Positions 2,283 to 29,177 of a DNA stretch of 64,000 bases are shown here, in pieces (position 1 is the stretch's first letter; every line of letters starts with the position of its first letter). The notes beneath the pieces are model-generated. The model searched no databases and was not told the origin of the DNA. It saw nothing but the letters and a program-made list of their open reading frames with translations. This DNA comes from a virus. The stretch spans positions 1 through 64,000 of the IMG/VR virus record IMGVR_UViG_3300042876_000313, one strand, 5' to 3'. The position numbers and the translations under genes are program-made.

Positions 2283-2846
2283 TTATTTCTCAGCGGGGGT
2301 TGACATTGGAGCGGCGACCGCCTTCCTAAGCATCATAATTTTAGCGACACAAAACGCCGTGATATACAGCTTCATCCCCTCCGGGCGGTATTTAGACTTT
2401 CTTCGGCGAGCGGTGACGCTTCCAAAGCTCTTTATCAAAGTGTGCCGGTATTCGATGGCTTCTTTGTTCAGCCTTCGGAGTTCCCGCTTGTTCTTGGAGA
2501 CGTTATCTTTAAGCACTCTCCACCATTGGCGATGTGCCATGCTTTTGAATATGCGGGTAAGCCGTGTGTACTCAAGGTCAACCGCGTCTATTTTCTTGAG
2601 CTTGATCCCCATCCTTCTGCACAATTTTTCCTTTTCCATGTCTCGCTGCCTGACGGCTCTTAAATCGGGAGAATAATCGGTTGCTTGGTAATGGTGATCC
2701 CCTTGAAATTCCAACGCAAACCTGCGGCTTGGGAAAAAGAAATCAAGTTCAAGCCCTCGAAGCCACGGTGGACGGCAGTTCTTCTCGTATCGGAAATCCA
2801 CCATCAGGTTGATGTATCGCTCAAGAATTTGCTCGCCGTAACTCAT
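2283..2846 (-). CDS. PD-(D/E)xK restriction-endonuclease-fold protein (Vsr/DUF559-like)
   Basis: SYGEQIL...LELDFFFP..FALEFQGDHHY...RDMEKEKLC...GIKL motif series. ATG at 2846 (MSYGEQ) preferred. Confidence 0.75.
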   Translation of the reverse strand: MSYGEQILERYINLMVDFRYEKNCRPPWLRGLELDFFFPSRRFALEFQGDHHYQATDYSPDLRAVRQRDMEKEKLCRRMGIKLKKIDAVDLEYTRLTRIFKSMAHRQWWRVLKDNVSKNKRELRRLNKEAIEYRHTLIKSFGSVTARRRKSKYRPEGMKLYITAFCVAKIMMLRKAVAAPMSTPAEK

Positions 2847-2994
2847 GTTGCACCTTTGGGGAACCCCCGGCTTGGGGTGCAACACTCGCCCTTGTGGCGA
2901 TATGAAACCGTGAGGTTTTCCAAGCCGGGAGTAAATCTGACGTTATGTGTTGCACGGGATCAACGTCGCACTGGTTCTGCGATTCGTCAACCGG

Positions 2995-3081
2995 AAAATT
3001 AAAAGGGCGGCTGGTGTGCTTTCAGAGGTGTGAACAGTGACCGCACGAACCAACCGCCCCGCCAGCTTTCGCCGGCTAACT
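2995..3081 (-). ncRNA. Structured leader / small RNA: GCCGGC-GAAA-GCTGGC hairpin, then a long GGGCGGTTGGT...ACCAGCCGCCC stem ending in TTTT (terminator-like)
   Basis: Inverted repeats read directly from the sequence. Lies just downstream of the promoter at 3088-3116. Confidence 0.5.
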
Positions 3082-3087
3082 CGCAAG

Positions 3088-3116
3088 ACCATACCCCCCT
3101 TAAATCGGACTGTCAA
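3088..3116 (-). promoter_or_regulatory. Sigma70-type promoter TTGACA-N17-TATGGT
   Basis: -35 at 3116-3111, 17-nt spacer, -10 at 3093-3088. Overlaps the last pentamer of the array. Confidence 0.7.
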
Positions 3117-4071
3117 CTGCGCGTCACATTGCCGTTCCATGCCATTACCCGACGGGGCAATACATTACGGCACCCCGCCATTACCGCACGGGACCCTACC
3201 ACGCCCACACATTGCTTGACTTCACAGTGCTTTACTTCGCCGTTTCCGCGCCACTCCCGACCCCGCCTTGCCCTAACGGCGCTTGACCCGACGGCTCGCG
3301 GCGTCACCGACACCGTGCGCGACCACGCGCAACAATGCCTTGCCTTTGCTGTGCTTCACTCTGCTTTACCCAGACCCGACTTTACCACGCATCACCGGGC
3401 GTAACATAACCCCCGCGTCACTAGACCGCGCTTTGCCGATACCGCACGTCTCCCTACCCTACCCTACCTTACCCCGGCGCCACACTGCATAGCCACTGCC
3501 GCACTCTGCATTGCCTAACCGTTGCTCAACTACACCCTGCGACACCTCACCCAACCAGGACAGCACTCGACCATTCCACCGCTAGACGTGACGTTACATG
3601 TCGGTGCCAAAACCAAACAAGACCGAGCCAGTCGCAACCGCGCCATCGCAAGACCTCACCTTACCAACGCTCTGCTTGACCTTACTACCGCCCAACCAAT
3701 CTATGCCCCTCCGAAACCACGTTTTACCATTGTGCGCTACACCACTGCGTTACTTTGCTATACTATACTCCACCGACTCAGAACCACGCACAGCCTACGC
3801 TTGACGAGACGACACCATTCGCTGCCATGCCACTGCGCTGCCCCACCTGACGCCGCCACGCACAACCACAGCGACTCGCTACCGTACCGTTACTGCACAT
3901 AACTAGACTCTACCGATACCATACGAGGCGTCACCGTACCGCCGCAGTTCTGTTCATTGCCGTCGCATGACGACACCTCGCCTCACAACGCCATTACCCG
4001 ACCGCATAACGCCATACCAGCACTATACTTCACAAGTCCTTGCCCAAACATTGCCTTGCCCGTCCACGCCT
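3114..4071 (-). ncRNA. Pentamer-periodic non-coding array (NGY-NN units, GGY most common); candidate guide-RNA array of the adjacent Cas7-like protein (VIPR-like)
   Basis: Hand parse covers all 958 nt as 185 pentamers plus 33 single-base insertions. Position 2 is G in 182/185. Position 3 is C/T in 167/185 and never G. Positions 4-5 vary freely. Example (- strand 3242-3181): c GGCga AGTaa AGCac TGTga AGTca AGCaa TGTgt g GGCgt GGTag GGTcc CGTgc GGTaa. No long ORF on the sense strand. Confidence 0.85.
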
Positions 4072-4791
4072 TCACTCGTCCATGCGCTCGTAGGTGAAGC
4101 GCCCGTAAGATGCGTTGCGCCACTGGCCGAATCCCGACATCTGACCATATCCAAGCCATTCCTCGATCAACGCCTCGGCGTCCACCGCATCATCGCCCTT
4201 GCCAATCTTCTTGGACAGGCAGGTGATCGTGAACTCAAACGTCGCGCCGGCCAGCACCACTTCCGAACGCACCACCGTAACCCGTGGCCCCATCGCCGTC
4301 TCGGCCCGCAGCGAACGCTCACACAGCAGGACGCCGCTTTCCGAGCGGATGATCTTAGGCGGCAATTCCATGTCCGCCGCAATCGGCAACTGGATGACCG
4401 GAATGAAGCGCGGAAACACGAAGATGATCTGGTCAATCTTCGATTTGTACGCCGTGATGGACTTGCTCAGGGTGTCATCCGAAATCCGCAGCGCACCGCA
4501 GGCCGACTTGAAGAATCCCCGGATCATGTAATCTTCCAGGCAGACGAATTTCTCGTTGGGATCGCCGTCTTTCGGAATACTGGTGACGCCCCGCGCCAGC
4601 AGGTCGCTGCGCTTGAGCCGGGTAAAGCCGGTCGTGCCCGCTTCCTCCTTGTGTTCGGCGGTTTCCAATTCCTCCTTGCGCTTGTCGTCATCGGGGGCTT
4701 TGGACGCCACGAAGGACGCAAAGACTTCTTTGTTTTGGGGTTTCGTGCCGAGCATTGCTTCGGTCAACGTGAGTTTATACTTTAGCTTCAT
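4072..4791 (-). CDS. Stand-alone RAMP-fold, Cas7/Csm3/Csf2-like RNA-binding protein (239 aa; Vipr-like)
   Basis: N-terminal strand KYKLTLTEAMLG, helix DYMIRGFFKSAC, thumb hairpin ERSLRAETAMGPRVTVVRSE..G.TFEFTI and C-terminal Gly-rich loop GQMSGFGQWRNASYGRF are RAMP hallmarks. ATG at 4791 follows an A-rich leader and a CCCGCC/GGCGGG hairpin (4816-4832). Confidence 0.85.
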   Translation of the reverse strand: MKLKYKLTLTEAMLGTKPQNKEVFASFVASKAPDDDKRKEELETAEHKEEAGTTGFTRLKRSDLLARGVTSIPKDGDPNEKFVCLEDYMIRGFFKSACGALRISDDTLSKSITAYKSKIDQIIFVFPRFIPVIQLPIAADMELPPKIIRSESGVLLCERSLRAETAMGPRVTVVRSEVVLAGATFEFTITCLSKKIGKGDDAVDAEALIEEWLGYGQMSGFGQWRNASYGRFTYERMDE

Positions 4792-4975: not shown

Positions 4976-5149
4976 TCACGGTCTGTAAACCCCGTCGCCC
5001 TCGTTAAATGCCTGCGACAGAAATTCCGGTTGCCCGTTCTGGCTTTTGATTGCGTCCTCTTGGATTTGTTTTATTATGACCAGAAGATCGTTTCGAGTGA
5101 CGCAAGGCCTTGCCTCCATATCTTCAAGCCATTGTTTTGGTGTTTTCAT
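4976..5149 (-). CDS. Small phage protein, 57 aa (not in ORF track)
   Basis: Hand translation MKTPKQWLED...LSQAFNEGDGVYRP*. The C-terminal motif recurs in small phage proteins. Starts right after the stop of 5152-5493. Confidence 0.65.
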   Translation of the reverse strand: MKTPKQWLEDMEARPCVTRNDLLVIIKQIQEDAIKSQNGQPEFLSQAFNEGDGVYRP

Positions 5150-5151
5150 AA

Positions 5152-5493
5152 TTACTCAATCCCTTTCGCTCTCCGCTGGTCACGCGCACGGATAATCAAA
5201 ACCTGCGCCTGCGACACCAGGTTCGCGGACGAATGTTCGACTTCCTCAATGCTCGCTCGCTGGACGTAGCAGTAGCCGCGCTGTCCAGAGATTATCCGGC
5301 CACCCGATTGGCTGGCCAATTCGCGGACGATTCGTTTTCCGGCCTCGCCGGTTCCGAGTTGGAGCTTTGAGCTAATCGTGCTGGCGAACACCCAAGGTTC
5401 AGGCGAGTCAATCAATAGCTGCTCCATCTGTTCGACCATTGACGCCGTCACTTTCGGGCGCGAAAACTGCAATTCAGGTTGGCACATAATCAT
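5152..5493 (-). CDS. Hypothetical winged-helix-like protein
   Basis: STISSKLQL...KRIVRELASQSGGRIISGQRGY resembles a wHTH with wing. Confidence 0.55.
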   Translation of the reverse strand: MIMCQPELQFSRPKVTASMVEQMEQLLIDSPEPWVFASTISSKLQLGTGEAGKRIVRELASQSGGRIISGQRGYCYVQRASIEEVEHSSANLVSQAQVLIIRARDQRRAKGIE

Positions 5494-5541: not shown

Positions 5542-5892
5542 ATGAGAACCAAAACTGCGGTCGTCCGTCGTACCGAGCTTGAGAAAGCGTTTGCCCGTGA
5601 AGCTGGTATATCCGCCGAGAACGGCAAGCGTTTGCTCGCCACATTTTTCCGGCTCTTGTCCGGTTGCCTGCTCGACCGGAAAACCGTTTGCATGGGGCGC
5701 GTTGGCCGGCTGAATGTTTATCAGAAAGCCGCCCGCATCGGGCGCAATCCACGCCACCCGGATGATGAAGTGATTATTCCTGCTCATTGGGAGGTTCGCT
5801 TTGTTCTGCGCGGCCCGCTACGGGCGGAACTGCGGCGTATTCCGGTTGATGTGGATAGACCTTCCCCGGCCCGCCCAGATACAGAGCCGTAG
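5542..5892 (+). CDS. HU/IHF-family DNA-bending protein
   Basis: VGRLNVYQKAARIGRNPRHP..EVIIPAH.EVRF matches the HU beta-arm signature. Confidence 0.8.
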   Translation: MRTKTAVVRRTELEKAFAREAGISAENGKRLLATFFRLLSGCLLDRKTVCMGRVGRLNVYQKAARIGRNPRHPDDEVIIPAHWEVRFVLRGPLRAELRRIPVDVDRPSPARPDTEP

Positions 5893-7111
5893 TCTCTGCG
5901 TCCAAGTGGGTCAACAACTGCCTGATGTGATCCGTAGAAAGCCCGGCGGCCCGGCACTCAAATGCGTAGGTCACGCGCAGGCCGTGAAAGCAGCACTTGC
6001 GACTGTCCAACCCCGACCGCTTCACATAATCCCGAAACCGCGCCGAGCATAGCGTTCGGCTCTCGGTGTATCGCCGTTGTAATTCGCGCCAGACCCAACG
6101 CTCATGGTTGCGCTGGCCAATGATCTGCGGCATCAGTTCCTTGATCTGCGGCGGCATCGGGACGCATAGGCGCCGATCTTTTTTGTGGGTATAGACCAGC
6201 AAGTTCTTCCCGCCATCGTTAAACTCATTCGGAAGGATGGAATCCCATTCCAAGTTGATGCAGTCGTACATCCGCAGGCCGGCGTATCGAGCCAGGTACA
6301 TAGAACACTTGAACGCGAAATCAATCCGCCACAGGTCACGGTGCCGGTCCAATTCACTGACGGCCACCAGCCCAGCCTTGTCCCCGGTAACTTGAATCAT
6401 CGCCATTTTCTTTTCTTTCCGCGCCATGATCCGCTCAATGTAGCCCATGCACCGCTTAAATTCATCATCCGTCCACGGCTGCCTGTACCTCGGCTCCTTG
6501 GCTGAGATGGGCAGGGCGCGGGAATTGACCCGGCGCAAAATGCGGGCGATGTTGCCCATGACGTAGCCCTTGACGGCGCACCAGTCCAAGAACCGCCGAA
6601 TGACAACGTGATTCTGTTTCCGGTAGCTCATCCGGTGATCCTTATCCATGCCGTTGATCGCCTCGATTATGTGCTTTTCCTCGATGGAGCTTACCGGCAA
6701 CGTCAACAGATTGAATCGCCGGGCGAACAGTGAAACCTTGTAGATGTACGGCTCAATCGTGGTAGGTTGAAGTCCCTCGTTGCGGTCGAGGTGATCCCGC
6801 CAGGCTGCGATGCAGTCTGCGAAAGTCGGCTGGCGATCCATTATTTCTTGCAATCCCGTCTTGGTGATGGAGTCCGTGATTAAATCCGTGATGCGCCGTT
6901 TGATGTCCGCCGATTGCATAACCAACTCGATGTCGGCCTTGGCGTGCGTGTTCATCATTATCCATTGCACCCCCCGGCTGGTCAGCATCCGCAGTCGCCA
7001 ACCAGTTGCCTTGAAATAGACGAACGTGCGCCCGTCCAGTTCAAACGTCGGTCGCTCGAAAGATTTAGCTTCCGGCGCGTCAACTGGCTCAATGGTGGTT
7101 TCCTCGCTCAT
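5774..7111 (-). CDS. int: Tyrosine recombinase / phage integrase
   Basis: YAGLR (Arg), HKK (Lys), FHGLR (HxxR), LLTH and TTALY (catalytic Tyr), preceded by a SAM-like core-binding domain. Confidence 0.9.
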   Translation of the reverse strand: MSEETTIEPVDAPEAKSFERPTFELDGRTFVYFKATGWRLRMLTSRGVQWIMMNTHAKADIELVMQSADIKRRITDLITDSITKTGLQEIMDRQPTFADCIAAWRDHLDRNEGLQPTTIEPYIYKVSLFARRFNLLTLPVSSIEEKHIIEAINGMDKDHRMSYRKQNHVVIRRFLDWCAVKGYVMGNIARILRRVNSRALPISAKEPRYRQPWTDDEFKRCMGYIERIMARKEKKMAMIQVTGDKAGLVAVSELDRHRDLWRIDFAFKCSMYLARYAGLRMYDCINLEWDSILPNEFNDGGKNLLVYTHKKDRRLCVPMPPQIKELMPQIIGQRNHERWVWRELQRRYTESRTLCSARFRDYVKRSGLDSRKCCFHGLRVTYAFECRAAGLSTDHIRQLLTHLDAETTALYLGGPGKVYPHQPEYAAVPPVAGRAEQSEPPNEQE

Positions 7112-13932: not shown

Positions 13933-14926
13933 GGTGTTAATTCTCATAATCTCCAATATCGTGACCGTGAAACTCTTTGACCGCCGACCGGATAACCTCA
14001 TAAGCCTTGCGGCTGGCTTCGCTCCCGTAAGGGTTCACTTTTTGGATCGCTTGCTGTTCAGCAATAATCCGGTCAAACTCTGCTTTCGTCATTTTGCTTT
14101 TACTCATGCCATACCCTTTAGCAACCACCATGCCAACACCTTACACCACGAAAACACCAACCTTTAACGTGAACGCTACTTTATAAAGTGTCCCATTTCT
14201 GGACATGTACATTTGAGACTGTCCAACCGCAGGACACAACACCCGGAAAGATAGATAATGAGACTCAATCTCAAACCCTCCACAAATGCCCCAGGATCGT
14301 CTTTGGTTGGATGACCGGCACAAAGACGTGGGCAATATCCGCCCGTTTAGCCCTACCCAAGCCCAAGCACGCCGCCAAGCCTTCCCACCAATCACCCCAC
14401 CAACCGATTGACCAGACACCAGAACAACACCCCAAACGACCGGACGCCAGCCAACCCAACCGGATTGCAGGAACTACCCGCAGCCGCTCCTGCAACCAGG
14501 ACGCCGGCCACCTCGCCAACCGGACGACTGCCCGCCCGGCGCCATGATCCACCAACCAACTGGACAGGACGCCGGCCAGGCGATCAGCTAAGCAACCGCA
14601 CACCCGGCCCGGACTGGTGACGACCAACCCGCCAACCAGCACGACGACCGAGCAGCCGAACACCAGATCGGCGCCGACCTTCACCAGCCGACCGGAAAGC
14701 CGGGAAGGTGATCCGCTAACCAGGTGCCCGGCCAAGTCACCCGCCGACCTGCCACCGGGCCGGATGAACTGGACGACGACCGCCACCGCAAGCCAACCGC
14801 CGGCAGGACGCCACCACCAGCACCTAATCAGCCGGCCAACCACACCACCACAACCACGACCACACAAATCGTTGTAACTAGGGCCATTCAGCCCTACCAA
14901 CTAGAGCCATTCAGACTGGATAAATG

Positions 14927-16648: not shown

Positions 16649-16933
16649 TTATTTGGTTAGCCTGGGTTGTTTGCCTGGTTCATAGACCCATATTTCAAAA
16701 TCAGTCCAGTGTGGTTTTGTTTGGAATATGTGCATGAGTTTAATCCCCCATTCATCAGCAAGCGTCTGGTTCACCGAGTTCATCCAACCGATATATTGGC
16801 GAATCTGATTTTGCTTCGGCTTGCCAGTCCACTCGCAGGAAACTATGTGCGAAGTTCCTTTTTCCGGGGCAGTGTCGCTTACCTTTATCTGGCACTCAAC
16901 TCCCATGCCAAAATTACATCTGAATGTTTTCAT
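16649..16933 (-). CDS. Hypothetical protein
   Basis: 4-nt overlap with the MTase stop; lower GC than neighbours. Confidence 0.55.
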   Translation of the reverse strand: MKTFRCNFGMGVECQIKVSDTAPEKGTSHIVSCEWTGKPKQNQIRQYIGWMNSVNQTLADEWGIKLMHIFQTKPHWTDFEIWVYEPGKQPRLTK

Positions 16934-18210
16934 TGGTTCAGGTAGGCTTTGATGAACTCCGCCGCGACTTGGGGGACTATGGAATTTCCGTACCCCCTGA
17001 GTCGCATGACGGCTGCTTCACCGCATCTTTCAGCAACAATTTCCGGTTGGCGATCACCGCGCTTACGCACCACTCGGTCGGAAACCCTTGCAAATAACAG
17101 GGGAAGGCCGGGTTTAACGCGCCGGGCCTTTCCGTCGCGGCAGGGGAGCCAGATGGCATTGTCCCACGCGCCTGGTTGCCGAGTCCTTGGGTCACATTCA
17201 CCGCGTTCGTCCCCTTGCACGGCGCATCCGGCATCGTGTCCGGTGTTCTCCATCCGTCCACCGCCATCGCGGCTTGTCTCGGCAACTGGTCGAGCCGTTC
17301 CCGTGTCGAGCCGTCCGGGTTCACGCCTTCCGTCGCCATCCCCGGCGTGTCCTTCCAGTCGCGGCTGCTCGGGCTCGCCCATCCACTCAGCATCTTGACA
17401 TCCGTGGCGAGGTTGGTTTGCAGCACCCGGCCCGTCTTGGTGTTCACCCATTTCTCGCCCCGGCGTTCCAAGTCCGCGCTCGTCTCCCCCGCGCTGCCCT
17501 CGCTGGACGGGGTTGGCCAGCCTGCCATCTCCACCTGATTCGCCAGCGGAACCGTTCCGTGAGCGCACTTTCTTGGGTAGAATGTCCGCTCGTTGGCCTC
17601 CGGTGTGTGCCACCCCGCCATCGCAACCGCACTCAACGACGGCCCCTTGTTCCGCGCAACTTCCGCTTCCGCACCCGCAATGCTTCGGCCGCCATTCCCC
17701 GCGTTCGCATCGGGACTCGGCCACCCAGTACAATCGCTGCCGGATGTGCGGCGCGCCGACAGCCCCAGCGCCAAGTACCGCCGCCCCGATGGTGTAACCT
17801 TCGCCTTCACAGTCGTCGCATATTCTATCGAGCCACCCGTGGCCAATCGCTGAACTAACTTGCTCACCCATGACGGTGACAGGTTTGCACGCTTTGATGA
17901 GTCGGAACAAATGCGGCCATAAATCTCTTTCGTCCGTGATGCCTTTTTGCTGGCCGGCGGATGAGAAGGGTTGACAGGGGCAACTTGCAAACCAAATAGG
18001 TCGAGTTGTTGGCCATCCGGCGAGTTTAGCTGCGTATGCCCAGCCTGAAATTCCGTTGAACAGGTGGACTTGGGTGTAGTTTTTGAGTTCATCTGGTTGA
18101 ATGTCGGTTATGGATTTGCAGACGACATCGCCTGCGGGAATGAGTCCGGCGCGGATGAGTTCTTCCGTCCACGCGCAGACTTTAGGATCGTTGTCATTGT
18201 AATAATTCAC
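16930..18210 (-). CDS. C5 cytosine DNA methyltransferase, alpha-type polypeptide
   Basis: HLFNGISGW (motif I), PCQPFS (IV), GEQV (VI), HIRQRLYW (VIII), RLRGYGNSIVPQVA (X). GTG start at 18210. Confidence 0.85.
   Translation of the reverse strand: MNYYNDNDPKVCAWTEELIRAGLIPAGDVVCKSITDIQPDELKNYTQVHLFNGISGWAYAAKLAGWPTTRPIWFASCPCQPFSSAGQQKGITDERDLWPHLFRLIKACKPVTVMGEQVSSAIGHGWLDRICDDCEGEGYTIGAAVLGAGAVGAPHIRQRLYWVAESRCERGEWRPKHCGCGSGSCAEQGAVVECGCDGGVAHTGGQRADILPKKVRSRNGSAGESGGDGRLANPVQRGQRGGDERGLGTPGREMGEHQDGPGAANQPRHGCQDAEWMGEPEQPRLEGHAGDGDGRREPGRLDTGTARPVAETSRDGGGRMENTGHDAGCAVQGDERGECDPRTRQPGAWDNAIWLPCRDGKARRVKPGLPLLFARVSDRVVRKRGDRQPEIVAERCGEAAVMRLRGYGNSIVPQVAAEFIKAYLNQ
16977..18092 (-). CDS. Nested out-of-frame beta-type polypeptide of the cytosine MTase
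   Basis: 371-codon alternative frame with repeated W-x-[ST]-P units and LNPAFPCYLQGFPTEW (motif IX region, missing from the alpha frame). Confidence 0.7.
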   Translation of the reverse strand: MNSKTTPKSTCSTEFQAGHTQLNSPDGQQLDLFGLQVAPVNPSHPPASKKASRTKEIYGRICSDSSKRANLSPSWVSKLVQRLATGGSIEYATTVKAKVTPSGRRYLALGLSARRTSGSDCTGWPSPDANAGNGGRSIAGAEAEVARNKGPSLSAVAMAGWHTPEANERTFYPRKCAHGTVPLANQVEMAGWPTPSSEGSAGETSADLERRGEKWVNTKTGRVLQTNLATDVKMLSGWASPSSRDWKDTPGMATEGVNPDGSTRERLDQLPRQAAMAVDGWRTPDTMPDAPCKGTNAVNVTQGLGNQARGTMPSGSPAATERPGALNPAFPCYLQGFPTEWCVSAVIANRKLLLKDAVKQPSCDSGGTEIP

Positions 18211-18557
18211 GCGACCGTCCCTCCACAGAGCCAGGCGCGTTTCCCGGTTTCGATGCCGCGCTTGGCCATGCACTCCTTGAATCGGGCGTTGAATTTCTTC
18301 AAGTCCTTCTGTGAGAAATCGCGGGGCTTGACGATTTTGCGGCGGCGTTTGAAAAAGTTCATGGTCTGGTGATTCCGTAGATGATCCAAGCGATGATTCC
18401 GGTGGAAATGCAGCCAGTGAACAGGCCGATGAAAAAAATGAGCAGGTTGGCGTCGCGCTGTTCGGCCTGGCATTGCTCGCAGAGGTTTTCCGGTTGGTTG
18501 GTCTTTTTCATAAACGGTCGGCAGACTCAGCACCCGGTCTGCCAGCGGTTTGGGTGG

Positions 18558-28073: not shown

Positions 28074-28511
28074 TCATAGCAGTTTCCTCATCTCGCGCAC
28101 CAGCCGGCCAATGCGGCGTTCGGCTGATTTACCTCCCGCGTCATCGTGCTTCGATTTGATCGTCAGGGGATCGCCGCCGTCAACCGATTTGCCTTCCTCG
28201 ACGGCCTTCTGGTCAACTAGCAGCGGGACGAGTTCGCCAGCGAGTTCGGCCATTTTGTTGTGGGTTTGAAGGAGCGGCCAATGGGTTATCAAAACGAGTT
28301 TCATCTTGGCCGGGGCCGGGATGACCACGCAGCCGTCCCACTCAAAGTACGGAGGAATGGTTTCCCATTTCTGCCCCATCAGGTTCATGGCCTGAGCGAA
28401 CATCTCATCGTAAGCCTCCTGCTGAATCAGGCAGATGTTGGGTTGCTTGCCGTCCAGGTGCATTTTAATATTCACCAAGGCGAGTCGGAATTGTTCGAGC
28501 ATCAAGTTCAT
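28074..28511 (-). CDS. Hypothetical protein
   Basis: Operon packing with 4-nt overlaps. Confidence 0.55.
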   Translation of the reverse strand: MNLMLEQFRLALVNIKMHLDGKQPNICLIQQEAYDEMFAQAMNLMGQKWETIPPYFEWDGCVVIPAPAKMKLVLITHWPLLQTHNKMAELAGELVPLLVDQKAVEEGKSVDGGDPLTIKSKHDDAGGKSAERRIGRLVREMRKLL

Positions 28512-29177
28512 AAATTAAAATCCTCGGTCAGCTTTACGTTGTTCTTTGGCTGCTTTTTCTTCGGCATACCGCCGGTTTCTCGAAGCGGTCTTTGAGTCGC
28601 ACGGGGAATGACCAGCGCATCCATGCTCCACCGTCCAGATGCCCATAATCGCAGCGGCTTTCTGGTTTGGAACTTCGCCCTTCCATTGCGCCCCACAAGT
28701 GCAGTTCAAGTCGAGTTTCATAGTCTCCATTTCCTACCGCTGTAATGGACGTGCTTCACCGTGGCGATGGCGCGGTTTGCACCTTCCAACATCCATTGTC
28801 GTTTTGCTTGAACATCTGGGCCGACAGATTCCAGACATTCAGCCATCATGTCCGCTTGAAGATTAGCCAACTGGCCCAATACGAATTTCCGGTAATAAGC
28901 CAGCCGCTTGGTCTTGTGCTTGAGCGCGGGCGGGATCGGGATGGTTTTCAGGTTTGGGTTCATAGTTTCAATTTGTAACACCCCGACTTGCAGGCCGCAA
29001 TCCAGCGGGCGCGTTCGGCGGGGTTTTTGAAGGTGGTCGTTTCAATCGCCTTGCCATCGTCCCATTGGGTGATGTGCTGCTCGGTGATGTGAAATTCCCG
29101 GTGAACGTCAACACCCGGCCCGCCGTGGTCGCGGATGACTTTCTGGAAAACCAGACGGGCGGGTGTGACTTCGATGC

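What the first reader, a model, noticed from the sequence alone, without database searches (positions are those of the whole stretch)
3114..4791. Stand-alone Cas7/RAMP gene abutting a 958-nt pentamer-coded RNA array: candidate non-CRISPR RNA-guided system (VIPR-like)
Seen: the RAMP-fold ORF (4072-4791, -) ends in TGA, and from the very next base the sequence is strictly periodic for 958 nt. It holds 185 pentamers: position 2 = G (182/185), position 3 = C/T (167/185, otherwise A, never G), position 1 = G in about half, positions 4-5 free. It begins a GGCgt GGAcg GGCaa GGCaa TGTtt g GGCaa GGAct TGTga AGTat AGTgc. There are no identical direct repeats with spacers, no cas1/2/3/5/6/8/10 in the window, and no long sense-strand ORF. 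Established: Cas7-family RAMPs polymerise along guide RNA with a fixed nucleotide step per subunit. Inference: each subunit grips one (N/G)GY motif and displays the NN dinucleotide, so targeting information is interleaved rather than contiguous, and a nuclease-free filament could silence a competing phage or host genes. From memory and unverified here, a recently reported phage 'VIPR' system has this RAMP + GGY/NN architecture and reads DNA skipping every third base. This locus would be a relaxed-consensus (NGH), unusually long variant.
Basis: partly seen in the sequence, partly recalled or inferred. Interest (0 to 1): 0.97.

Follow-up and report, generated by a model that had tools for sequence, protein, structure and literature searches.

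The report
Phage VIPR system, punctuated guide array
A complete soil-phage genome carries a Cas7-like protein gene followed directly by a 958-base array of five-base repeats; this is a member of the VIPR family of RNA-guided gene silencers described in 2026, in its little-studied 'staggered' array form, so it is a well-read example and not a new kind of system.

Summary
Window 3114-4071 (-) holds 185 pentamers: position 2 is G in 182, position 3 is C/T in 167, A in 18 and never G. Lag-5 identity is 0.41 against 0.28 in shuffles (z 9). The array starts at the base after the stop codon of a 239-aa ORF.

That ORF folds as a Cas7/Csm3-type RAMP. It aligns over its full length with the Vipr protein of phage phiSUSP1 (hhalign E 2e-5).

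The locus is a member of that family.

The array is not one 958-nt guide. Single extra bases divide it into 33 modules of 4-8 pentamers, and 32 of 33 restart with GG. This matches the published but experimentally untested 'staggered array' form.

More than 560 viral contigs and 39 bacterial contigs encode relatives. 101 of 121 loci examined carry the same punctuated array beside the gene. Related arrays differ by whole modules.

This scan had already noted the punctuation on the same stretch (e1-6031459).

Verdict: new member of a known kind, moderate interest.

The parts
4072..4791 (-). vipr gene: 239-aa stand-alone RAMP (Cas7/Csm3-like). It has a beta-hairpin thumb at about residues 155-179 and a G-loop GYGQMSGFGQWRNASYG at 214-230.
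   Evidence: Translation. AF2 model pLDDT 88.8. Foldseek against PDB: top hits are type VII Cas7 and Csm3, E 2e-6 to 1e-5. hhalign against phiSUSP1 Vipr: E 2.3e-5 over 175 columns. No Pfam or PHROG hit.
3114..4071 (-). Staggered vrRNA array: 33 modules and 185 pentamers. Each module is one extra base x followed by GGYNN and then (NGYNN) repeated k-1 times, with k = 4-8.
   Evidence: As RNA it has no excess secondary structure (z +0.57). No Rfam family and no hammerhead ribozyme.
3372..3412 (-). Longest module (8 pentamers): G GGTTA TGTTA CGCCC GGTGA TGCGT GGTAA AGTCG GGTCT
   Evidence: Its NNx pattern had 0 exact matches in IMG/VR.
3667..3687 (-). The single module that restarts with AG instead of GG: T AGTAA GGTCA AGCAG AGCGT
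2995..3060 (-). Long G+C-rich hairpin (3005-3060) followed by UUUUAAUUUU (2995-3004). This is the likely terminator of the vipr-array transcript.
   Evidence: Fold of 2960-3125 (-): -68.4 kcal/mol, z -3.75, 0 of 200 shuffles fold as well.
3088..3116 (-). Promoter-like consensus match (TTGACA, 17 nt, TATGGT) at the very end of the array. A consensus match only.
5152..5493 (-). 113-aa ORF upstream on the same strand, with a winged-helix/HTH-like predicted fold. A weak candidate for an accessory (vap) gene, or a lysogeny regulator.
   Evidence: Protein atlas structural neighbours TM 0.63-0.77, including HTH_11 and HTH_3 clusters. No Pfam or PHROG hit. Not found beside homologous vipr genes.
5774..7111 (-). 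Tyrosine integrase. It places the VIPR locus in the lysogeny module of a temperate phage.
   Evidence: PF00589 E 8e-13 and phrog_1 E 1e-25.
2283..2885 (-). 200-aa ORF downstream of the array, similar to phage HNH/homing endonuclease families. Probably unrelated to the system.
   Evidence: phrog_559 E 1e-14. Not conserved next to homologues.

Best explanation
This is a VIPR (Viral Interference Programmable Repeat) locus of a temperate soil phage.

What is shown here. The gene at 4072-4791 (-) encodes a Vipr protein, a minimal single-RRM RAMP related to Cas7/Csm3. The 958 nt after its stop codon are a tail-less 'staggered' array on the same strand.

What is inferred. These steps follow from the published work on phiSUSP1 and P. 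fulva VIPR and were not tested here.
1. The gene and array are transcribed together and end at the hairpin and U-run at 2995-3060.
2. Vipr protomers polymerise head to tail on the RNA, one per pentamer.
3. Each protomer flips out G2 and Y3 and presents N4 N5 to pair with DNA that is read two bases on and one base skipped.
4. The filament blocks transcription of a competing phage, satellite or prophage. No nuclease is evident in the locus.

Specific to this clade.
- Position 1 of the pentamer is free. In phiSUSP1 the base G1 is contacted by H17 and D177. Here the aligned residues are T16 and Q223, with Q223 nearly invariant in the clade.
- A single inserted base, followed by an obligatory GG, breaks the register every 4-8 pentamers.
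- I read each 21-41-nt module as a separate short guide reading 8-16 bases. On this reading the junction plays the boundary role that the structured 3' tail plays in type II vrRNAs.

Confidence by part: about 0.9 that it is a VIPR, about 0.6 that modules are independent guides, and about 0.5 that the read-out is the plain 1-nt-skip rule.
For: Fold.
- AF2 model pLDDT 88.8, pTM 0.83.
- 59 PDB chains at E <= 1e-3; all those listed are CRISPR RAMP backbone subunits. Examples: type VII Cas7 9j9e/8z4j at E 2e-6, Csm3 9ash/6ifl, Csf2 7xg1.
- The only PDB sequence match is a Cas7 at the G-loop, E 0.037.
- Best viral model is a 'RAMP superfamily protein' of a gut siphovirus, E 6e-20.

Homology to a characterised Vipr.
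- The family profile finds one ORF in the phiSUSP1 genome, E 0.0035.
- That ORF lies in the layout published for phiSUSP1 VIPR: vipr, vap1, then long intergenic regions.
- hhalign E 2.3e-5, 76% probability, 175 columns. G-D-W-R of phiSUSP1 aligns with G-Q-W-R here.

RNA part.
- Counts as.
- The same parser applied to phiSUSP1 recovers its four published vrRNAs.

Conserved linkage.
- 125 protein relatives, at least 567 IMG/VR stretches, and 39 bacterial contigs from at least eight phyla.
- 79/80 viral loci show a period-5 G signal on the gene's strand.
- 101/121 loci have at least 3 chained 5k+1 modules within 300 nt of the gene. The median gap from stop codon to array is 9 nt.
- Module sizes in relatives peak at 6 pentamers.

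Constraint on the array.
- Between near-identical modules G2 changed once, position 1 changed 18 times, and N4/N5 changed 10 and 9 times.
- Loci whose Vipr proteins are 98-100% identical share only about half to nine tenths of their modules. The differences are whole-module insertions or replacements.

Codon register.
- NN composition fits codon positions 1-2 of the sense strand better than five other registers or the genome background. For this array: -3.98 against -4.05 bits per dinucleotide. Pooled over relatives: +543 bits over background.

Self-assembly.
- Three copies scored 0.63, with the best of 3 controls at 0.00.
- In the tool's calibration this mark was reached by 20 of 30 proteins solved as pairs of one chain and by 1 of 23 solved as single chains.
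- The runs agree in at least 45% of contacts, partner pLDDT is at least 76, and the interface is head to tail.
- The pass may reflect likeness to solved Cas7 filaments.

Context.
- The genome is a complete 76.6-kb virus record with terminal repeats.
- It has an integrase, no Cas1, no Pfam RAMP and no CRISPR-like repeats.
Against: - There is no evidence here that the array is transcribed, processed or bound.
- No natural target was found. Module patterns under skip rules 0-3 match the phage's own genome, 80 related loci and IMG/VR no more often than shuffled modules do.
- No vap accessory gene is identifiable, although the paper says VIPR loci typically have one.
- Modules of 4-5 pentamers read only 8-10 bases, which is short for a specific guide. 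The characterised vrRNAs have 9-16 repeats.
- The hhalign probability is only 76%, and the thumb region does not align reliably.
- The NN composition is A-rich. AA alone makes up 22% of the pooled set. Part of the codon-register fit could therefore reflect avoidance of G-Y mimics and not the composition of targets.
Confidence: 0.85

Rival explanations
1. The array is one long guide, or a few, and not 33 guides. A filament runs through the junctions. The extra base only relieves helical strain about once per turn, so neighbouring modules read neighbouring DNA.
For: - Modules average about one helical turn of the published filament, which has 5-6 protomers per turn (paper read; module sizes).
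- There are no tails, ribozymes or spacers between modules.
- Single modules are short for specificity.
Against: - Related arrays insert, delete and replace whole modules between shared ones, which would break a contiguous target.
- Module length varies from 3 to 14 pentamers.
- Two-module patterns with junction offset 0 or +1 had no match in IMG/VR.
- Flanks of 117 single-module matches did not match the neighbouring modules at any offset from 0 to 7.
Confidence: 0.1
2. The array is not a set of offensive guides. It is a decoy or sponge RNA that soaks up Vipr protein of the phage or of rivals, or it regulates the phage's own genes.
For: - Satellite-encoded solo vrRNAs that redirect a phage's VIPR to decoy sites are published (10.64898/2026.10.15.759431).
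- No external target was found here.
Against: - The array sits directly after its own vipr gene in most of 121 loci. Published decoys, in contrast, are solo vrRNAs.
- NN positions turn over quickly and module by module, which is unexpected for a sponge.
- There are no matches to the phage's own genome above chance: 11 perfect matches under skip 1 against 16 in shuffles, and none for k >= 6.
Confidence: 0.04
3. The periodic stretch acts as DNA or is translated. Examples would be a structural repeat, a G-rich element, or the 124-126-aa plus-strand ORFs. On this reading its place next to a RAMP gene is incidental.
For: - Plus-strand ORFs of 124 and 126 aa lie inside the array.
- No RNA data are available.
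Against: - A period of 5 with +1 slips is incompatible with a conserved reading frame.
- The ORFs have no family match.
- The signal is strand-specific and always on the gene's strand.
- Linkage to the RAMP gene holds across at least eight phyla of hosts.
- In the one related-array group where point differences were tabulated, only G2 was held nearly fixed (1 change). Positions 1, 3, 4 and 5 changed 8-18 times.
Confidence: 0.01

Closest known systems
VIPR type II systems of Escherichia phage phiSUSP1 and a Pseudomonas fulva prophage (bioRxiv 10.64898/2026.04.26.720920 and .720927)
   Same: - Small single-RRM RAMP with a G-x-G-x-W-R G-loop, phage-borne.
- Pentamer repeats with fixed G-Y and variable NN on the gene's strand.
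- No cas genes and no CRISPR array.
- Full-length profile alignment at E 2.3e-5.
   Different: - In phiSUSP1 each vrRNA is a single in-phase run of 12-16 mostly GGT-NN pentamers plus a structured tail of about 43 nt, and the vrRNAs are separated by spacers. Here there are 33 tail-less modules of 4-8 pentamers separated by one base.
- G1 is obligatory in phiSUSP1. Here it is free except at module starts.
- The G1 contacts H17 and D177 align with T16 and Q223.
- No vap1 gene lies between the gene and the array.
- Protein identity is about 22%.
'Staggered vrRNA arrays' and alternative repeat consensus (NNNGG, YNNNG, NNNNG) listed in the VIPR discovery paper (fig. S18 and methods)
   Same: [quoted passage not shown]
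- The YNNNG register equals the NGYNN register seen here.
   Different: - I could read only the legend, not the figure or the tables. Whether this clade is the one shown, and which of types I-VII it belongs to, is unknown.
- The paper states that the ribozyme arrays and the single-vrRNA systems were confirmed by sRNA-seq. It does not say so for staggered arrays.
Non-canonical VIPR-like period-5 clusters (WGT/NN, TGH/NN and others) in bioRxiv 10.64898/2026.10.21.760802
   Same: A degenerate first position of the fixed trinucleotide, and a co-located Vipr-like fold.
   Different: That study describes the non-canonical motifs as repeating 10 times. It does not mention +1 punctuation or arrays of about 1 kb.
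Class 1 CRISPR backbone subunits (Cas7 of type VII, Csm3 of type III-A, Csf2 of type IV)
   Same: - RRM core, beta-hairpin thumb and glycine-rich loop.
- Best structural matches at TM 0.4-0.54.
- Polymerises on the guide with a fixed step.
   Different: - 5-nt step, not 6-nt.
- No repeat-spacer array.
- No Cas5, Cas6, Cas10, Cas1 or Cas2.
- Falls below the Pfam RAMP model.
- Guide information is interleaved, not contiguous.

Membership tests
VIPR (Vipr + vrRNA) | Vipr protein: minimal RAMP with RRM core, G-loop and thumb, and no second RRM | tested here: met
   239 aa. AF2 pLDDT 88.8, with a beta-hairpin at 155-179 and a glycine-rich loop at 214-230. PDB matches are Cas7, Csm3 and Csf2 only.
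VIPR (Vipr + vrRNA) | Sequence homology to an experimentally characterised Vipr | tested here: met
   Family profile against phiSUSP1 Vipr (KT454805.2, 28474-29061): hhalign E 2.3e-5, probability 76%, 175 columns. It was the only hit in that genome, E 0.0035. The relationship is distant (22% identity).
VIPR (Vipr + vrRNA) | Tandem pentamers with a fixed GGY (or related consensus) alternating with variable NN, next to vipr | tested here: met
   185 pentamers of form NGYNN. The paper's operational rule of YNNGG repeated at least 4 times is met twice in the array and 0 times in the rest of the genome. The relaxed rule YNNNG repeated at least 4 times is met 22 times in 958 nt, against 40 in the other 150 kb counting both strands.
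VIPR (Vipr + vrRNA) | NN hypervariable and GGY conserved among relatives | tested here: met
   In one group of 8 related arrays, G2 changed once while positions 1, 4 and 5 changed 18, 10 and 9 times. Pooled G2 frequency is 97%. Modules differ between loci whose proteins are 98-100% identical.
VIPR (Vipr + vrRNA) | Invariant structured 3' tail capping each vrRNA (type II) | tested here: not met
   There are no tails between modules. The array shows no excess structure (z +0.57) and no Rfam hit. Only one hairpin follows the whole array. The paper allows other architectures, including staggered arrays, so this excludes type II and not VIPR as a whole.
VIPR (Vipr + vrRNA) | Accessory vap gene in the locus (described as typical, not universal) | tested here: inconclusive
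   No neighbour is shared with the 80 related loci. A WH/HTH-like 113-aa ORF lies upstream and an HNH-like ORF lies downstream. Both are leads only.
VIPR (Vipr + vrRNA) | Mainly viral or proviral, outside CRISPR loci | tested here: met
   Complete virus record with an integrase. No Cas1, no Pfam RAMP and no CRISPR-like repeats. Relatives occur in at least 567 IMG/VR stretches.
VIPR (Vipr + vrRNA) | vrRNA is expressed and co-purifies with Vipr | not testable with these tools
VIPR (Vipr + vrRNA) | DNA recognition by NN pairing with one target base skipped; targets in competing mobile elements | tested here: inconclusive
   NN composition fits codon positions 1-2 best. No target was found above chance in local or IMG/VR searches.
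Class 1 CRISPR-Cas effector (Cas7 backbone) | CRISPR repeat-spacer array, with further cas genes (Cas5/6/8/10 or an adaptation module) | tested here: not met
   The only direct repeat found in the window is an unrelated two-copy 27-nt pair. No Cas1. No other RAMP.
TIGR-Tas | 18-nt period tandem interspaced guide arrays with a Nop-domain Tas protein | tested here: not met
   The period is 5, not 18. The protein has a RAMP fold. The TIGR period is as quoted in 10.64898/2026.10.21.760802.

The most novel reading that the evidence does not exclude
In this NGH clade the grammar differs from the published GGY/NN code in two ways that would matter.

1. A single inserted G replaces the structured tail as the punctuation mark. 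One transcript would then yield dozens of one-turn mini-guides that are gained and lost module by module, which hints at a dedicated route for acquiring or exchanging guides.

2. The freed position 1 may be read as a third base. Stop triplets in N4-N5-p1 are depleted: 161 observed against 205 +/- 9 expected. The guide would then read three bases per protomer, not two bases plus a skip.
Probability: 0.15. Interest if true: 0.7.

Novelty: new member of a known kind. Interest (0 to 1): 0.4.

Why it matters
VIPR is a months-old discovery with only type II systems characterised. This locus adds nothing categorically new.

It is, however, a clean and complete example from a large clade: at least 567 viral contigs, and prophages in at least eight bacterial phyla. 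That clade uses the architecture the discovery paper lists but did not test experimentally.

The grammar worked out here gives concrete constructs for testing how a tail-less array is cut into guides, and how short a VIPR guide can be. The elements are:
- x + GG restart at each module;
- modules of 5k+1 nt;
- a free position 1 that coincides with the D-to-Q change in the G-loop;
- a GCAA-x-GGCA junction motif in relatives;
- turnover by whole modules.

A 240-aa protein with 21-41-nt self-punctuated guides would also be a compact multiplex silencing tool.

Tried and rejected
Target searches.
1. Self-targeting. The 31 cleanly parsed modules (the two irregular ones at 3667-3713 left out) were searched against the phage's own 76.6-kb genome under skip rules 0-3. 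Matches were at or below shuffled controls, and there was no perfect match for k >= 6.
2. About 930 modules from 81 arrays against 1.7 Mb of related loci. No excess for skip 1 over skips 0, 2 and 3 or over shuffles, for perfect or one-mismatch matches.
3. A three-base rule (N4 N5 p1). Only array-to-array hits and a few low-complexity hits appeared.
4. IMG/VR exact scans. The 8-pentamer module gave 0 hits. Two adjacent 7-pentamer modules joined with offset 0 or +1 gave 0 hits. Two long modules from relatives gave 0 hits.
   Exact matching and the limit on scans make all of this weak evidence of absence.

Other tests.
5. Whether p1 follows the third-codon-position usage of local ORFs. It does not; the model does worse than a uniform one. 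The stop-triplet depletion therefore stays unexplained.
6. Polarised, CRISPR-like turnover at the gene-proximal end. Rejected: unshared modules by fifths of the array are 0.36, 0.40, 0.24, 0.24, 0.41.
7. Conserved neighbours as a vap gene. None is shared with the window. Neighbours conserved among gut-phage relatives (a cI-like HTH protein, SSB) reflect phage synteny.
8. A lag-5 signal at 14300-14600 is a C/A-rich stretch of period 4/8/12, not a second array.
9. An idea that phiSUSP1 tails begin with the same +1 G was dropped, because the parse there is ambiguous between a -1 and a +1 shift.

Tools and searches that gave nothing.
- The metagenome scan found no close relative; the best hit was 39% identical.
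Full report
**The observation**

The minus strand of window 3114-4071 is periodic with period 5. Identity at lag 5 is 0.413, against 0.283 +/- 0.014 in shuffles (z 9.1). The ten 300-nt windows with the highest lag-5 identity in the whole genome all start between 3001 and 3901.

Secondary peaks at lags 16, 21 and 26 pointed to regular phase slips. A phase-tracking parse, refined by hand at two junctions, gives 33 modules and 185 pentamers:
- position 2 is G in 182;
- position 3 is C or T in 167, A in 18 and never G;
- position 1 is G in 93.

Each module is one extra base followed by 4-8 pentamers. The first pentamer starts with GG in 32 of 33 modules, whereas internal pentamers have G at position 1 in 61 of 152.

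The array begins at the base after the TGA of ORF 4072-4791 (-).

As RNA the array is no more structured than its shuffles (z +0.57). It matches no Rfam family.

A strong hairpin with a U-run follows at 2995-3060 (z -3.75).

**The protein**

The 239-aa product has no Pfam or PHROG match. With an alignment of 66 relatives it folds confidently (pLDDT 88.8, pTM 0.83).

The model shows an RRM-like core, a long beta-hairpin at 155-179 that carries conserved arginines, and a glycine-rich loop at 214-230.

- Foldseek against the PDB returns 59 chains at E <= 1e-3; all those listed are CRISPR backbone RAMPs. Type VII Cas7 and type III-A Csm3 come first (E 2e-6 to 1e-5, TM 0.4-0.54).
- The single PDB sequence match is a Cas7 at the G-loop (E 0.037).
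- The nearest viral model is annotated as a RAMP superfamily protein (E 6e-20).
- Three copies are predicted to assemble head to tail. The score is 0.63, with the best of 3 controls at 0.00. In the tool's calibration the mark was reached by 20 of 30 proteins solved as pairs of one chain and by 1 of 23 solved as single chains. The runs agree in at least 45% of contacts, and partner pLDDT is at least 76. The pass may be memory of solved Cas7 filaments.

**What is known**

VIPR systems were reported in 2026 (bioRxiv 10.64898/2026.04.26.720920, read).

According to that paper:
- VIPR consists of a stand-alone ancestral RAMP (Vipr) and vrRNAs of 9-16 GGY/NN pentamers with a structured 3' tail.
- DNA is recognised by NN pairing with every third base skipped.
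- Transcription is repressed, and natural targets lie in satellites and rival prophages.
- There are seven types.
[quoted passage not shown] The structural paper (10.64898/2026.04.26.720927) assigns the contacts: G1 to H17 and D177; G2 to R138 and W178; Y3 to a pocket that includes R179.

A later survey reports 99 period-5 clusters, 21 of them with degenerate motifs such as TGH/NN (10.64898/2026.10.21.760802).

**Link to a characterised Vipr**

phiSUSP1 is in the phage collection (KT454805.2). The family profile finds one ORF in its genome (E 0.0035). That ORF, at 28474-29061 (-), sits in the published layout: vipr, a 146-aa vap, then long intergenic regions.

hhalign gives E 2.3e-5, 76% probability and 175 aligned columns over the full length. 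The G-loop aligns G-V-G-D177-W178-R179 of phiSUSP1 with G-F-G-Q223-W224-R225 here. H17 aligns with T16.

Q223 is nearly invariant in this clade. Both residues that read G1 in phiSUSP1 are therefore different in a clade whose RNA no longer keeps G1. This is an inference from an alignment, but it is coherent.

My parser, run on phiSUSP1, recovers its four published vrRNAs: uninterrupted runs of 12-16 pentamers, each followed by a tail of about 43 nt. This validates the parser and shows directly how the present array differs.

**Relatives**

- 125 proteins match at E <= 1e-3.
- At least 567 stretches of IMG/VR encode relatives.
- 39 contigs of bacterial genomes and MAGs do too. The hosts include Verrucomicrobiota, Chloroflexota, Clostridia, Planctomycetota, Acidobacteriota, Bacteroidota, Desulfobacterota and Cloacimonadota.
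- 79 of 80 viral loci have a period-5 G signal on the gene's strand next to the gene.
- By a strict test (at least 3 chained 5k+1 modules within 300 nt), 101 of 121 loci qualify. 91 arrays lie downstream, with a median gap of 9 nt after the stop codon.
- Module size peaks at 6 pentamers.
- The pooled consensus is N-G-H-N-N. G2 is at 97%. Position 3 is C 62%, A 21%, T 15% and G 2%. Internal position 1 is at background.
- Relatives show a junction motif...N-G-C-A-A, x, G-G-(C/A)-A.... It is weak in the window's own array.
- The strict median array span is about 310 nt. The closest relatives (41-48% identity) have arrays of roughly 800-1450 nt by looser measures. The present array is therefore long, but it is not an outlier within its sub-branch.

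**How the arrays evolve**

In a group of eight related phages the arrays share collinear blocks of modules. They differ by insertion, loss or replacement of whole modules.

Point differences between variant modules almost never touch G2 (1 change). They fall most often on position 1 (18 changes), then on N4 and N5 (10 and 9).

Pairs whose Vipr proteins are 98-100% identical share only half to nine tenths of their modules. There is no strict polarity along the array.

This favours modules as independent functional units. It argues against one contiguous long guide.

**Targets**

None was identified. Searches under skip rules 0-3, and under a three-base rule, gave nothing above shuffled controls. 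The searches covered the phage's own genome, 1.7 Mb of related loci, and IMG/VR by exact pattern.

The absence of self-matches agrees with the paper.

Indirect support for the published codon-register targeting comes from NN composition. Among six codon registers and the genome background, NN composition fits sense-strand codon positions 1-2 best. This holds for this array and strongly so for 4,289 pooled dinucleotides (+543 bits). The A-richness of NN may contribute to that fit.

One result is unexplained. Triplets N4-N5-p1 are depleted in stop triplets: 161 observed against 205 +/- 9 expected, with 0 of 2000 permutations as low. Yet p1 does not follow the third-position codon usage of local ORFs.

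**Context**

The genome is a complete 76.6-kb virus record with direct terminal repeats. The locus lies in a minus-strand run of genes:
- integrase (5774-7111);
- a 113-aa WH/HTH-like ORF (5152-5493);
- a 57-aa ORF (4976-5149);
- vipr, the array and the terminator-like hairpin;
- an HNH-like ORF (2283-2885).

None of these neighbours recurs beside related vipr genes. No vap gene can therefore be named.

In gut-phage relatives the locus also sits by a cI-like repressor. This fits a role for the system in or around lysogeny.

**Verdict**

The locus is a VIPR system of the staggered-array form with an NGH-NN repeat. It is a new member of a known kind.

The mechanism is taken over from the characterised type II systems. 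Module-wise guide function is inferred from the grammar and from array evolution.

Transcription, processing, binding, targets and the exact reading rule remain to be shown.

Noticed in passing
window 2995-3116 (-): Right after the last pentamer there is a sigma-70-like match (TTGACA, 17 nt, TATGGT at 3116-3088). A 56-nt G+C-rich hairpin with UUUUAAUUUU follows (3005-3060 and 2995-3004; z -3.75). It could end the array transcript, or it could be a leader for the HNH-like gene downstream.
   Followed up: partly
homologous arrays, loci L001-L080 and L201-L241: Stop triplets (TAA, TAG, TGA) are depleted in the frame N4-N5-position 1 of the next pentamer: 161 observed against 205 +/- 9 expected. 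Yet position 1 does not follow local third-codon-position usage. This is unexplained.
   Followed up: partly
homologous arrays, loci L007-L080 and L201-L241: Module junctions carry a semi-conserved motif, N-G-C-A-A, x, G-G-(C/A)-A. The last pentamer has C at 92% and AA at 67-78%. It looks like a very short handle or processing signal. It is weak in the window's own array.
   Followed up: partly
window 4072-4085 (-): The last codons of vipr and its stop codon (…GCAT GGACG AGTGA) already read as pentamers in the NGYNN pattern. The array's grammar therefore seems to start inside the gene. This may be chance.
   Followed up: no
window 2283-2885 (-): A 200-aa ORF similar to phage HNH/homing-endonuclease families (phrog_559, E 1e-14). 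It overlaps plus-strand ORFs of 105-137 aa and is not conserved beside related vipr genes.
   Followed up: partly
window 5152-5493 (-) and 4976-5149 (-): Two small ORFs lie between the integrase and vipr. The 113-aa one has viral winged-helix/HTH-like structural neighbours (TM 0.63-0.77). It could be an excisionase or regulator, or a vap-like partner.
   Followed up: partly
window 14340-14700 (+): A C/A-rich low-complexity stretch (CCAACC-like units) with identity peaks at lags 4, 8 and 12. It raised the lag-5 score slightly but is not a pentamer array.
   Followed up: partly
window 16930-18273 (-): A DNA methyltransferase gene (phrog_363, E 1e-62) in the early region of the phage.
   Followed up: no
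L200 (phiSUSP1 KT454805.2, 26500-31000): In GenBank the vipr and vap1 genes of phiSUSP1 (ALH47069.1, ALH47068.1) are still annotated as hypothetical proteins, and the four vrRNAs are not annotated.
   Followed up: no
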